Source of the DNA: Cyanidioschyzon merolae | Taxonomy: Eukaryota | Strand: one strand, 5' to 3' | Assembly (NCBI GenBank): GCA_000091205.1 | Contig: AP006486.2 | Length of the DNA stretch: 64,000 nucleotides | Part shown: positions 43,306-49,660 of the stretch, piece by piece | Position numbering within the stretch: the first letter of the stretch is position 1 | Layout: each line of letters opens with the position of its first letter | Program-made: the position numbers and the translations under genes | The notes under the pieces: generated by a model | Told to the model about the DNA's origin: nothing | Database searches by the model: none | What the model saw: the letters and a program-made list of their open reading frames with translations, nothing else

Positions 43306-43308
43306 GGC

Positions 43309-43362
43309 ACACATACACACACACAGACAGACAGACATACAGACAGACAGACAGACACACGG
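43309..43362. repeat. (CA)n/(CAGA)n compound microsatellite
   Basis: acacatacacacacacagacagacagacatacagacagacagacagacacac is visible immediately after the stop codon of the 41944 gene. Confidence 0.85.
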
Positions 43363-45226
43363 GTCCGCAGTGCCGATGGATAAACCGCTGCAGCACGCTA
43401 ACGATCGCTGCAGATCCGATGCATCGACTGCGAAGAACGCGATGCGTTTGTGTGCGTTTGCGCCCATCGACGACAGTAAGTTGCAATAGACACGTACACA
43501 TCAGCCCCTAAACCTGTGTGACTTTAAAAAGGAACATGAAAATACTAGCTCTGTAACTGCCTTGCGGTTTTTTTTCTGCCTTGATGCACAGCCATAAGAT
43601 TCAACGCACAGCAATGGGAGCTGAAGAATTCAGAGGTTGTTCTGAGGTTCTCGGTCGCATTTTCGGGAGTGGCTCGTTTCACGCCTCGCCGCTGGCATTC
43701 ACGACACCACCGGCATGACGATCTTTCGCGACGTCGTTGAATAACGGTTTGCAAAACAGCCGATATTCTCATATAAATCATAGGTATAAGAGTTCGGTTT
43801 GCATCTTAAATTGCGAGTAGTGTGCTCAAATAATGTATGGTTCAATTTTTCGATGTTTCTGATTCAAGGCAACACACGGTGGGCGGGAATCCGCGCTCCT
43901 GGACTGATGACGAGAAATACTCGATGCCATGACTCGACGACTTGTTCACAGGCTCATGTCGAGGCCAGGCTCAACATGTCACGTCCATGAATCGAATCTG
44001 TTTCAAAGACATAGCCCTCTTGCTTTGCTGCCACCGACGATAGAGCATTCCACAGCAGCACGACGCCATACACTGGAAATGCTCCGGGAGGCCCCTGTCT
44101 CTTGTGTTGACTTGAAAAAGCGTCTTGCACTCGAATTCCCGGCATCACATTGATCAGTTGTAGTGGAGCATGCGTCACCGCTTTGCACGAAGTTAGCGGA
44201 GACGTTTCGAAATTTCTCGACGTGTTCTCCAGCCTGGATTTGCCCTCTGGTAATTGCGGCATCATGGATATGATTGTATTCCACAAATCTTCGATTGAAT
44301 GGAACAGCATGCGCTCGCATATGCAGCAAAACTTGTAGTCGACGTGGACATCGACTCAAAGAAACCCATGGTCATTGAACCTGCACCGCGCTAGGAAACG
44401 GAGCAGAGCAGCTTCGCGAGCCTTCTGTACCCGTCAGCCGTGTATACTGAGCGATTAAACAAGCGCTCGCGTGAAATACAACGGACCTTGAATGAGCATA
44501 TGTGCCGTAGATATCGAAACATCTCACCAAATCCAAGTCATACCGCTGCGAAATGCGCGCCAAGGCTGCATACGAAGCAAACGGAAACGGTACGCGACCC
44601 GTAGATCGCAACATCGGCTTGAGCATACCATGCATCCACAACTGCCGGAAACAGCAGAGCATCGAGACTTTCATATTGCCGTCACCATCGTTCGCATGCA
44701 GGCACCGGTCCTCCCGGGAAATCATAGACTGGTACAGTGGGAGCTGGAACAACCAGCGCGGAAAACGAATCATTCGCAGAGAAACCTCGCAAAGCTGGTG
44801 TCGATGACAACGGCAAGCGATACAGACTTTAGAATATACATCCCAGTTAGCGCACCGGTTCCGTTTTATGCGGATGCGAACGTCGTGTAGACGCCCGAGT
44901 CCTCTTCACACAATCTTCTTCCATTTTCACCTGACACGGGTATAGCAAACTGCGCTGCCTGCACTGGTGCAGGCAAGCGCGTGCCCTCGAACCGGTACCC
45001 CGGAAAAGGCGCTGTGTCCGCCAGCCAGACGGCAATCGGACCCCGATTGACCGCTTCTCAGTCGATGGTGCGCTTGAAAAGCTCGCACCGCGCTCGAGAC
45101 GCGACCTACGAGGATATAACACCTGAAAGGCAAAGTTTGCTTTGGCGGGGAACCGCCCCTGTCCGTCAGACTGTGCCAGCGGGCCCGGATGTCGCCGATG
45201 AACTCCACGGCGTAGTGTAGGTCAAA

Positions 45227-47182
45227 GTGCGAGGGTGCTTCGCGCGCATGAAGCGGAAACGAGCGCTCAGGCGGTTGCAACCTGGGCAACAACAACTCAA
45301 GCCGGTGCCGAGGCACGAGTCTTCGGTTTGGGTCTGCTGCCCAGCGTGCCACGAACGTCTGGCGGCAGCGAGTCTGAGCTTTCACACCCTCTATGACTGC
45401 AGCGAACGGAGGTCACAGGACGTGCTCGCTTCTGCGAACAGCAGCACCATCAGTACTTGGGACAGGTTGCCAGACGAGACACCTGGATCAGCGGATCCCG
45501 CTCGGGACGCCTGCCTGGCGCAGACGCAAGCACAGCAGAACAGTTCGGAGTCTGCTGGATGTCACCGAAACACAACTGGTGCGGCGTCGTCGTCGTCGTC
45601 GACCGCCTCCCAGCCAGACGTGTCAACGACGAATACGAGTTTGCAGGCTGCATACCAGACACTCACAGCAGACGTGCCGTACACGTCTTCTGCACACAGT
45701 GAAGCGCGGAACGCGTTTCGCTTACTGATGACGCCTCAACGCTACCTAGCCTGTTACTGGACCATGCAACGCTTTTATCGCGGGAATGATGCCACCGGTG
45801 CGAACGGCACCTATTTGCGCTCGGAACTGCTCTTCGCAGGTGATTCGCGACTAGAGCGCCTGCTTACAGAGCCGTGTTGGCGATGCTTGGGTAGCACGCG
45901 ACTCGCTGACGCACTCTGGCGACCTAGCAACGTTCGCGAACAGTACGCAGACGCCAGCAAAATCCGAACCCAAGTCATTTGGCTGGCGCACAAGTCCCTC
46001 TTCGAGCATGACGCATATGTGCCGGCTACAAAGCTTCTTGAGGGACGCGAGCCGCGTCTCCCGCGTGCGCTGCTGCTGTCGGCGCTGCAGAAGAGCATCC
46101 GACGGGCTCGCTGGCCCCAGGTTGTTCGCCTCTCGCGCTACCTGATCGATCGATACGGTTTGGGTATGGTTGCGCGGCGACTGCTGGTTATCACCGTGGA
46201 GGATAGTATGGCACACCCAGCCATGCCGATCCTGGCCTGGTTCATGGGCACAGCGAGTAAGGGCTACCAACCGACTGCAGCCGATGTCGATGCAGTGCTG
46301 CGGTTCGCGGCTGAGATCAGCAGCGTCGCCGTTCGTGACTTGCAGGTATCGAGACGCTATCACAGCATTGAGGCGTTCCAGCACGACTGGGCGGTGTGCG
46401 AGGAAGCTTTTGGAACGTTGGTACCGGCACCAGCGCGGGCGCTCGTTGCCTCGTTGTTGTTGCGGGCGCTTTTCGGCGGCATGCACGGTGATCAGCTCAT
46501 GATGCGGGAATACGCTGTGGAATGGTTGCGACGGTTTCTCTTGGATACACAGCGTGATCCGCTTCAACTGGAGATACCAGCCGCACCACTGGCGATGCTG
46601 CAGGATTCGATGCCGTCGCCAAAGATACCGTCAGTGGATCAGGCGTGGTACGCTGTCGCAGACGCTGCTGCCGCCACTGCGCCATCTTGGCTCCAGTTCT
46701 TGGAAAAACTGTACGAAAGGGTCCGTAGCTTGTTATCCTCGCAGCAAATCCGCTGGGAAGCGGACCAGTGCGTATCTATTACCGATATACCGCCGGCGGC
46801 AGTAGGTCCATTCAGCGGTCTTCCGTCACCAACGTCAGAGCGAGTGCAGCGGAGTCGCTTCTGGCAGCGCATAAGCCGGACACTCCTCGACTATGCTCCC
46901 AAAGCAGCACCAGAGGATACCTGGGCCTCGCTTATCTGGCATTTGCGGGCCAAATTAAACGTGCGGCCTTGCTGGTCGGTCGTCTTCGACGACAACGACG
47001 AAGACGACAACTCGACGTTCACCGTTGCGCTGCAGCTCGCGGATAATGCTTGCGAACAACTCCAGCCGTTCTTCACCAGTGCACAGCAACGAGTGTGTTG
47101 GCAGAACATAGCACCCCAAGTCGAGGCTTTATCCATGATGGTCTTGCGCCGCTATTTCTCTGAGCACCAGACCCGAGGATGA
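45227..47182 (+). CDS. Protein with an N-terminal UBZ-like C2HC zinc finger, an S/T-rich low-complexity region, and a C-terminal MgsA_C/WRNIP1-like helical domain; no AAA+ ATPase motifs seen
   Basis: CCPACHERLAAASLSFHTLYDC fits the pattern C-x2-C-x11-H-x4-C. LLSALQKSIRRARWPQVVRLSRYLIDRYGLGMVARRLLVITVEDSMAHPAMP resembles the RarA/Mgs1 C-terminal block [53 protein letters not shown]. No Walker A (GxxxxGK[ST]) is present anywhere in the 651-aa ORF. Confidence 0.5.
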   Translation: MRGCFARMKRKRALRRLQPGQQQLKPVPRHESSVWVCCPACHERLAAASLSFHTLYDCSERRSQDVLASANSSTISTWDRLPDETPGSADPARDACLAQTQAQQNSSESAGCHRNTTGAASSSSSTASQPDVSTTNTSLQAAYQTLTADVPYTSSAHSEARNAFRLLMTPQRYLACYWTMQRFYRGNDATGANGTYLRSELLFAGDSRLERLLTEPCWRCLGSTRLADALWRPSNVREQYADASKIRTQVIWLAHKSLFEHDAYVPATKLLEGREPRLPRALLLSALQKSIRRARWPQVVRLSRYLIDRYGLGMVARRLLVITVEDSMAHPAMPILAWFMGTASKGYQPTAADVDAVLRFAAEISSVAVRDLQVSRRYHSIEAFQHDWAVCEEAFGTLVPAPARALVASLLLRALFGGMHGDQLMMREYAVEWLRRFLLDTQRDPLQLEIPAAPLAMLQDSMPSPKIPSVDQAWYAVADAAAATAPSWLQFLEKLYERVRSLLSSQQIRWEADQCVSITDIPPAAVGPFSGLPSPTSERVQRSRFWQRISRTLLDYAPKAAPEDTWASLIWHLRAKLNVRPCWSVVFDDNDEDDNSTFTVALQLADNACEQLQPFFTSAQQRVCWQNIAPQVEALSMMVLRRYFSEHQTRG

Positions 47183-47213
47183 GCCTTCATGACTTGTCCG
47201 TAGCCGACGGGTG

Positions 47214-48329
47214 TCAGCGCGGGCCGCGATCCGCCGAGTCCTCGCCAACGGGTTCCTTTGCGAGCACTTGGGATCGAGCTTCGATTCGCTGTCGATACAG
47301 GCGCACGAGGAATCCTACGAGTAGAACAGCACCCACGATCGTGCTTCCTAGACGAAGCGTATGGGCCCAACTGGGCACCGTTGCCGCCTTTGGAAGCGCT
47401 CCGTCGGCACCCATCGAGAGTAAGCTCAGGTCGCGGGCGCCGACGCCAGCCCCGACCAATGGCAGCAGACCTGGCACAATGCCCAAAGTCGTCGTCCAGA
47501 GAAAATCGCTGAATCGGACGCCCACAGCCGCAAGCAGGTAGTTATTGATAAACGAGGGTACCGGTGAGAGCCGCATGTACAACATCATAGACGGACCCTC
47601 GCGGCGGACGATGTCCAACCAGTACCGGAAACGTGGAAATCGTTGGCACTGTTTCTGCACGTAACCATAGAGCACAGTGCGACCAAGGATGAAACACGCG
47701 ATCGCCGCCCCCAGTTTGCTCAGATGCATCGAAAGAAACCCCAGCGGAAAACCTAGCGTGTATCCAGCGGCGACCTCGATCAACGCCGATGCCGGGAAAC
47801 ATAACACGATAGCGACAAAGTGCAGCAGTGCGAAGGCTGCAGCAATCTTACCCGGACCGTGCTGGTCCGCCAGTGTCACCAGCCGCTGCACCAGGCTCGA
47901 GAAGCGCGCGTGCACCCAGGGCTGGTGTCCCAGCTGGTAAAAAACCACGACCACACAGAACAGCACACCTGCGCCAAGAAACCACTTGATCCGCGTATTT
48001 TTATTTTGAACTGTTTCCGACTCGATGGACTGGACACCTTTCGTGCCTGGTGCTGTCACCGAGGCTTCATTCGTCACCCAGGCGCAGGCGCGTGGCGTAC
48101 GAGCTGCCCTCTTGATCGCGCACACCGAGCTCCGTGGTCGCGATTTTACAACAGTTCGACACAGTCCGAGCCTGGATGTACTGCGTCTTCCGCTTCCGAT
48201 AAACACCTGGAAGGCCATCGTACCGCAGGGGCTCGTGGAAGTCGCCCCAGTGCACAGCGCAGACACCACAGATATGCAAGTTATGAAGGATACCGTGGGT
48301 GCAGTGCAGGGTGATCGCGCTCCATCCAT
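47214..48329 (-). CDS. TVP38/TMEM64/DedA-family (SNARE-associated Golgi protein) membrane protein
   Basis: ALLHFVAIVLCFPASALIEVAAGYTLGFPLGFLSMHLSKLGAAIACFILGR and RLSPVPSFINNYLLAAVGVRFSDFLWTTTLG match the DedA/TVP38 signature blocks (compare R[LI]IPFIPFSL[LI]NYAAGLT.I.F..F). The N-terminal ~110 aa are low-complexity, so the true start may be an internal Met. Confidence 0.8.
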   Translation of the reverse strand: MDGARSPCTAPTVSFITCISVVSALCTGATSTSPCGTMAFQVFIGSGRRSTSRLGLCRTVVKSRPRSSVCAIKRAARTPRACAWVTNEASVTAPGTKGVQSIESETVQNKNTRIKWFLGAGVLFCVVVVFYQLGHQPWVHARFSSLVQRLVTLADQHGPGKIAAAFALLHFVAIVLCFPASALIEVAAGYTLGFPLGFLSMHLSKLGAAIACFILGRTVLYGYVQKQCQRFPRFRYWLDIVRREGPSMMLYMRLSPVPSFINNYLLAAVGVRFSDFLWTTTLGIVPGLLPLVGAGVGARDLSLLSMGADGALPKAATVPSWAHTLRLGSTIVGAVLLVGFLVRLYRQRIEARSQVLAKEPVGEDSADRGPR

Positions 48330-49660
48330 GGGCCATAATGTCCTCTATTTATCTAAATATTCATACTTGTCTAGTTAGGTTCAGAGCTCCGTGCAGGACC
48401 CGCGGCAGGTCGCGACTCGGGACACGTCATCGGCAAGCATTGTCCACGAGACTGATTCGCAACCGCTGCATCCATATCACGAGTAGCGTGGAGCGTGCTG
48501 CGCTTGAAGTGGCGCTAAACGATGCGCCGTTTTGCGGTGTCGATGACCCCGAGAACAGCACTCCACACAGAAGACATCGTCAGCATCCGCTCTGTTCTAC
48601 GCAGGGTTTTGTAGTTCCGTATGGCGGTCATGCGCAGGCGTTGAACCCTGCAAACAGCATCAATCACGGGGAATATTGGTGCTTGTGCCAAAGCTGCTCT
48701 ATCGCTTTCGTCTTCAGCGATGAACAAGTCGGCGTTCATTCGCCACGATTTGATGCACATCAGCTCGCCGGAACTCGGGTGTGACTCGCACAACGACGTG
48801 CACACCGTGCGCAGTCGTCGACAGCATGAGATGATACTAGACGGTAGTGGTCGCGTACTAACGCTACTTGTCCACTTGTTCGCGTGCATGTATGCTTAAA
48901 GCGCTTTTACAAACATATGATCGATGTTTCGTCCGGTTGAGCAGAGAACTGGAAACCCAGCAGCAGCCTGACTGCGTCGCGGACACCGAAACACCTCGAC
49001 CATGAGGATGCGTTCAGGACGACTCCGAAGCTGAGGATGGAAGCGACGCAGCAGATGCGGCCTGGAAGCGCGTATGTTGCCAGATGCAAGCGCCGCCATG
49101 GGTCAGCGCCAACCTCGGACTTGTATGGACCGAGGCCCAGCATGGATTCGATGCGCATGTAAGGAACCGACACGTAAGTTTTTTCCAGTGAAGCATTTCG
49201 TCACCAGGGCAACGGCGACGATGAACAGCAAGCGGAGCACCACAACCACGTGCCTCTGTGCATGAACCATAATGGGGTGAAGAGTCCGACGTGAATGGGT
49301 GTTTCACGACGGACGCGCGCGCGTCACTGTTGCAAGCGAAGCGGCCCGTTTGCCGAACAGGGCGCACGGTGGCGACAACATCGTTGAACGAGCTTGAATC
49401 GAGACCGCTGATGGTACGTCTCGCGTTGCGCGTACTGCAAGATGAAGGTACTGCGGGCGGTAACGGCATCATGAGCGTTTCTCCAAAGACGATGAAGCGG
49501 TGATCTGCACCAAACAAGGAGCCTGGTACGGGCGAAGCTTCATAAACAGCGTGCAGATCGAAAGAGCAGCATCTATCCATGGAAGAGCAATCCTGCTCAG
49601 GTGATCGGTCACGTCGCCTGTGCTGTACGGATCTCGAGTGTGACCATGATTCTGGGGAGA

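What the first reader, a model, noticed from the sequence alone, without database searches (positions are those of the whole stretch)
45227..47182. Protein with a UBZ-like zinc finger and an MgsA_C-like domain but no AAA+ ATPase module (a WRNIP1/Mgs1-like protein with the ATPase missing?)
WRNIP1/Mgs1/RarA proteins have a UBZ finger, then an AAA+ ATPase, then the MgsA_C helical domain. Here the N-terminal C-x2-C-x11-H-x4-C finger and the C-terminal LSALQKSIRR...ARRLLVITVED block are present, but the ~300 aa between them is S/T/A-rich low complexity with no Walker A or B. This could be a catalytically dead adaptor paralog, or a mis-joined gene model with missing exons.
Basis: inference. Interest (0 to 1): 0.55.

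Follow-up and report, generated by a model that had tools for sequence, protein, structure and literature searches.

The report
ATPase-less UBZ plus RarA-tail protein
This red-alga gene encodes an intact protein that joins a ubiquitin-binding-type zinc finger to the tail domain of the RarA/WRNIP1 DNA-repair ATPases but has no ATPase, and it belongs to a large unstudied family found across algae, protists and giant viruses.

Summary
The ORF is real. It is Cyanidioschyzon merolae CMD052C (XP_005535424.1, "hypothetical protein"), 644 aa from the ATG at 45248.

The CCHC finger and the LSALQKSIRR…ARRLLVITVED block are both present.
- A profile of the family's fingers hits the RAD18 UBZ (E=4e-9) and the WRNIP1 UBZ (E=3.5e-7).
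- A profile of the family core hits RarA/MgsA C-terminal domains (E=1e-5).

- The spacer is not ~300 aa of low complexity. About 90 aa are disordered, followed by a folded ~110-aa β-rich domain.
- The gene model is not mis-joined. Orthologues are colinear, and the same ATPase-free layout recurs in about 1000 representative proteins from diverse eukaryotes. A ~330-aa version without the finger occurs in giant viruses.

Most likely it is an ATP-independent, ubiquitin-guided scaffold in the DNA-damage or replication-stress response. That function is inferred, not shown. Interest is moderate.

The parts
45248..47182 (+). Complete intron-free CDS of CMD052C (644 aa plus stop).
   Evidence: ORF list. 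Translation is identical to XP_005535424.1. Orthologues begin at the equivalent Met.
45248..45298 (+). Basic N-terminal motif MKRKRALRRLQPGQQQL, NLS-like, conserved in Cyanidiales.
   Evidence: Invariant K4 R5 R8 R9 L10 P12 G13 Q14 L17 in the three-species alignment. The role as a nuclear localisation signal is inferred.
45329..45436 (+). UBZ4-type CCHC zinc finger (aa 28-63; ligands C31, C34, H46, C51; spacing C-x2-C-x11-H-x4-C).
   Evidence: The pattern is present and its four ligands are invariant. The model shows beta-beta-alpha with pLDDT about 85. The family finger profile hits RAD18 UBZ at E=4e-9, WRNIP1 UBZ at 3.5e-7 and FAAP20 at 3e-4.
45440..45706 (+). Disordered S/T/A/Q-rich linker (aa 65-153) with a poly-Ser tract of variable length.
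   Evidence: pLDDT <50. STAQNPG fraction 0.62-0.74. Not conserved between species. The Ser run varies from 5 to 9 among near-identical variants.
45710..45730 (+). NAFRLLM motif (family motif [ND]-A-F-x-x-[LM]-[LM], usually followed by basic residues). Here it forms the first helix of the beta-rich domain.
   Evidence: Conserved in Cyanidiales. Found once or twice in 77 of 151 family members. Helix 156-161 in the model. Function unknown.
45710..46042 (+). Beta-rich middle domain (aa 155-265). It sits where the AAA+ module and lid sit in WRNIP1.
   Evidence: Four long strands plus short helices, pLDDT about 80-95. Conserved in Cyanidiales, and a simpler version occurs across the family. No significant fold match: Nudix-like hits have probability 0.14 only.
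46055..46555 (+). MgsA_C-like helical domain (aa 270-436) carrying the signatures S278-x3-K282-x2-R285, R310-R311-x6-E318-D319, D364, and R406-x3-GGM-x2-D415…W426-x2-R429.
46580..47173 (+). Family-specific C-terminal helical extension (aa 445-642) with conserved W481, D513, W564, N571 and W618.
   Evidence: pLDDT mostly 85-97. Conservation over 125 members. Also present in the giant-virus homologues.
46805..46816 (+). G520-P-F-S523: the position where 80-95% of the family has the motif D-F-H-C. The motif is lost in all Cyanidiales.
   Evidence: Gap-free alignment of 125 members. Cyanidiales read GPFS, GPFC, GPSC or GPYS. 34 of 57 viral copies match D-[FYW]-H-[CST], 33 as DFHC and one as DYHC.

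Best explanation
CMD052C is a correctly modelled single-exon gene. Its protein belongs to an uncharacterised family found in eukaryotes and giant viruses.

The family's core module is about 300 aa. It consists of a small beta-rich domain, then a helical domain whose first ~165 residues are homologous to the C-terminal (tetramerisation) domain of the RarA/MgsA/Mgs1/WRNIP1 ATPases, then a family-specific helical extension. Cellular members, including this one, carry in addition an N-terminal RAD18/WRNIP1-type UBZ4 zinc finger on a disordered tether and one or two NAFxxLM motifs. No member seen has an AAA+ ATPase.

Proposed mechanism (inferred): the finger brings the protein to ubiquitylated chromatin targets such as Ub-PCNA at damaged or stalled forks. 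The MgsA_C-like domain self-associates, as it does in RarA tetramers, making the fingers multivalent. It may also present the invariant K/R/E/D surface it shares with RarA to a partner or ligand that is still unknown. The protein would therefore act as an ATP-independent scaffold or regulator in DNA-damage tolerance, not as a motor.

Shown here: gene integrity, domain architecture, homology of both end domains, absence of an ATPase, and family distribution. Inferred: ubiquitin binding, oligomerisation and the DNA-repair role.
For: - Identity and integrity.
- No ATPase. Family-wide, 0 genuine Walker A motifs in 151 members.
- UBZ4: pattern and invariant ligands. Profile hits to RAD18, WRNIP1, FAAP20, RAP80 and FAN1 fingers. 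A Spongospora member is named 'UBZ4-type domain-containing protein' by UniProt.
- The RarA C-domain is the tetramerisation domain: PMC6374455.
- Family breadth: 1002 hits at E<=1e-3 and 358 at <=1e-10. Taxa include Cyanidiales, Rhodelphis, green algae, Rhizaria and a ciliate. There are 58 giant-virus loci.
- DNA-damage context: UBZ4 fingers occur in 74 of 118 members with long N-termini. One giant-virus copy is fused to an AlkB-type 2OG-Fe(II) dioxygenase, E=2.7e-17.
- UBZ-bearing proteins (RAD18, WRNIP1, FAAP20, FAN1, SLX4) act in DNA repair: PMC4370504.
Against: - No curated profile recognises either domain in this protein.
- Significant sequence similarity to MgsA_C covers only about 50 residues. 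The rest rests on a predicted structure and a low-confidence colinear alignment.
- The C. merolae finger deviates from the WRNIP1/RAD18 ubiquitin-contact pattern. The beta-loop is Pro-Ala instead of Pro-Val. The His-to-Cys spacing is x4, which moves the Asp from H+2 to H+4. Ubiquitin binding is therefore uncertain.
- Giant-virus copies work without any finger, so the core has a function of its own that is unknown.
- Twelve residues are 100% invariant, mostly charged, and there is a near-invariant DFHC motif. This looks more like a ligand or active site than a plain oligomerisation surface.
- Cyanidiales have lost DFHC, so this particular protein may differ in function from most of its family.
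- There are no expression, localisation or genetic data. No paper mentions CMD052C.
Confidence: 0.55

Rival explanations
1. The conserved ~300-aa module is an enzyme or small-ligand or nucleic-acid-binding domain of unknown activity. The invariant S/K/R/R/R/E/D/R/D/R set and the DFHC motif would form its active or metal site. The UBZ finger only targets it, and the MgsA_C resemblance reflects shared ancestry of a fold rather than shared oligomerisation.
For: - Twelve residues are 100% invariant and mostly charged, and DFHC is near-invariant across 125 members.
- The module is kept on its own, without a finger, in 57 giant-virus ORFs of about 330 aa.
- One viral copy is fused to an AlkB-type repair dioxygenase.
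Against: - No similarity to any known catalytic family in Pfam, NCBIfam or PDB sequences.
- The best-conserved residues are exactly those shared with the non-catalytic RarA C-domain.
- Cyanidiales lack DFHC yet keep the gene under constraint.
Confidence: 0.25
2. It is a regulatory pseudo-subunit. Through the shared C-domain it co-assembles with the canonical AAA+ Mgs1/WRNIP1 of the same cell and modulates or retargets that ATPase.
For: - It is homologous to the RarA tetramerisation domain.
- It carries the same type of N-terminal finger as eukaryotic WRNIP1.
Against: - I could not check whether C. merolae has a canonical Mgs1/WRNIP1 (database caps; no literature).
- Identity to RarA C-domains is only 15-24%, which makes a conserved hetero-interface doubtful.
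- Giant viruses carry the module, and no RarA-type AAA+ gene was seen among the recurrent neighbour ORFs (those clusters were not profile-scanned).
Confidence: 0.1
3. The gene model is mis-joined or truncated, and an AAA+ exon lies elsewhere.
For: None found. The only hint is that WRNIP1 has an ATPase at this position.
Against: - The full-length ORF is colinear in three Cyanidiales.
- The ORF and its neighbours are the same on metagenomic contigs.
- No Walker A occurs in six frames of 43306-48400.
- The spacer contains its own conserved folded domain.
- The same architecture occurs in 151 of 151 family members inspected.
- From general knowledge, C. merolae has very few introns.
Confidence: 0.02
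4. The MgsA_C and UBZ resemblances are chance motif matches in an unrelated helical protein.
For: Pfam and NCBIfam give no hits. Foldseek against the PDB finds nothing at E<0.1.
Against: - Three independent profile searches put only MgsA C-domains on top, at E=1e-5 to 4e-4.
- The finger profile hits RAD18 at E=4e-9.
Confidence: 0.05

Closest known systems
WRNIP1 / yeast Mgs1 (eukaryotic RarA-family AAA+ ATPases)
   Same: An N-terminal UBZ4 (CCHC) finger of the RAD18/WRNIP1 group. A C-terminal domain with the S-A-L-x-K-S-x-R … R-R-L-x5-E-D signature and the MgsA_C fold.
   Different: No AAA+ core, Walker A/B, arginine finger or lid. A ~110-aa beta-rich domain occupies that position. There is an extra ~200-aa helical extension after the MgsA_C-like part. 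The finger has H-x4-C spacing.
Bacterial RarA/MgsA C-terminal tetramerisation domain (PDB 3pvs, 2r9g, 2qw6, 3bge, 8g28; Pfam PF12002)
   Different: The Pfam model does not detect it. Significant sequence similarity covers only the first ~50 residues. Here the domain is not attached to an ATPase. Oligomeric state is unknown.
RAD18 UBZ and FAN1 UBZ
   Same: The family finger profile is closest to RAD18 UBZ (E=4e-9). The C-x2-C-x11-H-x4-C spacing of the C. merolae finger is, from my memory of the human sequence, that of the N-terminal FAN1 UBZ. FAN1 is a weak profile hit (E=0.028).
   Different: No RING or SAP domain (RAD18) and no VRR-nuclease domain (FAN1). Pfam finds none of these.
Uncharacterised giant-virus proteins (Pandoravirus neocaledonia A0A2U7UC17, Hyperionvirus A0A3G5AAS2, G4YAU5; 58 IMG/VR loci)
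   Same: The same beta-rich + MgsA_C-like + helical-extension module. Foldseek E=1e-10 to 1e-11, probability 1.0. tblastn down to 6e-17.
   Different: About 330 aa, with no UBZ finger and no long linker. Most keep the DFHC motif that C. merolae lacks. One is fused to an AlkB-type dioxygenase.

Membership tests
RarA/MgsA/Mgs1/WRNIP1 (AAA+ clamp-loader clade) | AAA+ ATPase core with Walker A (GPPGxGKT) and Walker B (hhhhDE). | tested here: not met
   No Walker A by regular expression. No AAA family in Pfam or NCBIfam at E<=10. The model shows an antiparallel beta-rich domain instead. None in six frames of the surrounding 5 kb.
RarA/MgsA/Mgs1/WRNIP1 (AAA+ clamp-loader clade) | Helical lid / AAA_assoc_2 segment between the ATPase and the C-domain. 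| tested here: not met
   No Pfam hit. The beta-rich domain runs directly into the MgsA_C-like helices.
RarA/MgsA/Mgs1/WRNIP1 (AAA+ clamp-loader clade) | MgsA_C domain recognised by the curated Pfam model PF12002. | tested here: not met
   0 families at E<=10 for this protein. 0 of 40 family members hit it at E<=1.
RarA/MgsA/Mgs1/WRNIP1 (AAA+ clamp-loader clade) | MgsA_C fold and signature (SALxKSxR … RRLx5ED). | tested here: met
RarA/MgsA/Mgs1/WRNIP1 (AAA+ clamp-loader clade) | Homo-oligomerisation (tetramer or octamer) through the C-domain. | not testable with these tools
   Needs SEC-MALS or a multimer prediction. Only monomer prediction was available.
UBZ4 zinc finger, RAD18/WRNIP1 group | CCHC ligands with C-x2-C-x11-H-x3-C spacing. 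| tested here: inconclusive
   The ligands and C-x2-C-x11-H are present and invariant in Cyanidiales. The last spacer is x4, not x3. Across the family, 62 of 79 fingers have x3 and 9 have the 2-11-4 spacing.
UBZ4 zinc finger, RAD18/WRNIP1 group | Beta-beta-alpha fold and profile similarity to solved UBZ4 fingers. | tested here: met
   Strands 28-30 and 37-39 plus a helix from residue 40, pLDDT about 85. Family finger profile: RAD18 E=4.2e-9, WRNIP1 3.5e-7, FAAP20 3e-4. Caveat: this is a family profile; the C. merolae finger alone gives no Pfam hit.
UBZ4 zinc finger, RAD18/WRNIP1 group | Ubiquitin-contact residues: Pro-Val in the beta-loop and Asp two residues after the His (H-L-D-x-C). | tested here: inconclusive
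   C. merolae has C-P-A-C (Pro kept, Val to Ala) and H-T-L-Y-D-C (Asp at H+4). Criteria are from PMC4370504. Many other family members have the canonical CPxC…HLDxC.
UBZ4 zinc finger, RAD18/WRNIP1 group | Binds ubiquitin and zinc. | not testable with these tools
   Requires biochemistry.
Unnamed eukaryote/giant-virus family defined here (beta-rich + MgsA_C-like + helical extension) | Invariant S278, K282, R285, R310, R311, E318, D319, R406, G411, D415, W426, R429. | tested here: met
   All are present in CMD052C and 100% conserved in 125 members. hmmsearch E-values go down to 1e-91 for the closest hit outside the three query sequences.
Unnamed eukaryote/giant-virus family defined here (beta-rich + MgsA_C-like + helical extension) | D-F-H-C motif in the C-terminal extension (80-95% of members). 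| tested here: not met
   It is replaced by G-P-F-S at aa 520-523, and is likewise absent in the other Cyanidiales.

The most novel reading that the evidence does not exclude
The ~300-aa module (beta-rich domain + MgsA_C-like domain + helical extension) is an autonomous functional unit that needs no ATPase. It is conserved from red and green algae, Rhizaria and ciliates to giant viruses. It shares with RarA/Mgs1/WRNIP1 the invariant S-K-R / RR-ED surface, whose role in those enigmatic repair proteins has never been explained.

On this reading the signature marks a binding or catalytic site that predates its fusion to the AAA+ motor, or was released from it. The family would be a new class of ubiquitin-recruited (cellular) or free-standing (viral) genome-maintenance factor.
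Probability: 0.35. Interest if true: 0.7.

Novelty: new variant of a known kind. Interest (0 to 1): 0.5.

Why it matters
RarA/Mgs1/WRNIP1 is one of the most conserved genome-maintenance proteins, yet how it works is still unclear. Its C-terminal domain is usually described only as a tetramerisation module.

This family keeps that domain's most conserved residues and has no ATPase. Cellular members pair the domain with the same kind of ubiquitin-binding finger as WRNIP1. One virus pairs it with an AlkB repair enzyme. That gives a natural separation-of-function system: whatever the shared surface does can be studied without the motor.

C. merolae can be manipulated genetically by homologous recombination (general knowledge), so the hypothesis is directly testable. 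The finding also gives a first annotation to about 1000 'hypothetical' protein clusters in algae, protists and giant viruses that Pfam does not cover.

Tried and rejected
- **Curated profiles.** Pfam and NCBIfam scans of the protein found nothing. Pfam scans of 40 family members, 10 long members and 5 viral members found nothing except one AlkB fusion.
- **Ctf18.** A single-sequence PDB search gave only a Ctf18 match at E=0.25 over aa 167-248 (ATG numbering). I considered this a possible remnant of an RFC-box/AAA+ module. I rejected it: it is not significant, the region is predicted as antiparallel beta, and no Walker A follows.
- **First structure prediction.** AlphaFold with only three sequences failed, at pLDDT 35.
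- **Foldseek against the PDB.** Nothing at E<0.1. Nudix-like hits for the beta-rich domain have probability 0.14, so that fold stays unassigned.
- **AFDB.** The afdb50 library was not available.
- **Word-index homologue searches.** With alignments these returned almost nothing.
- **Literature.** Searches for CMD052C, PF12002, Cyanidioschyzon+WRNIP1 and 'WRNIP1-like' found nothing relevant. The MgsA structure paper (PMC3069411) is not held.
- **Viral gene neighbourhoods.** No neighbour is shared by more than 7 of 58 loci.
- **NAFxxLM motif.** I compared it from memory with PIP, APIM, RIR, MIP and CIPK NAF motifs. None fits, and Pfam NAF does not hit.
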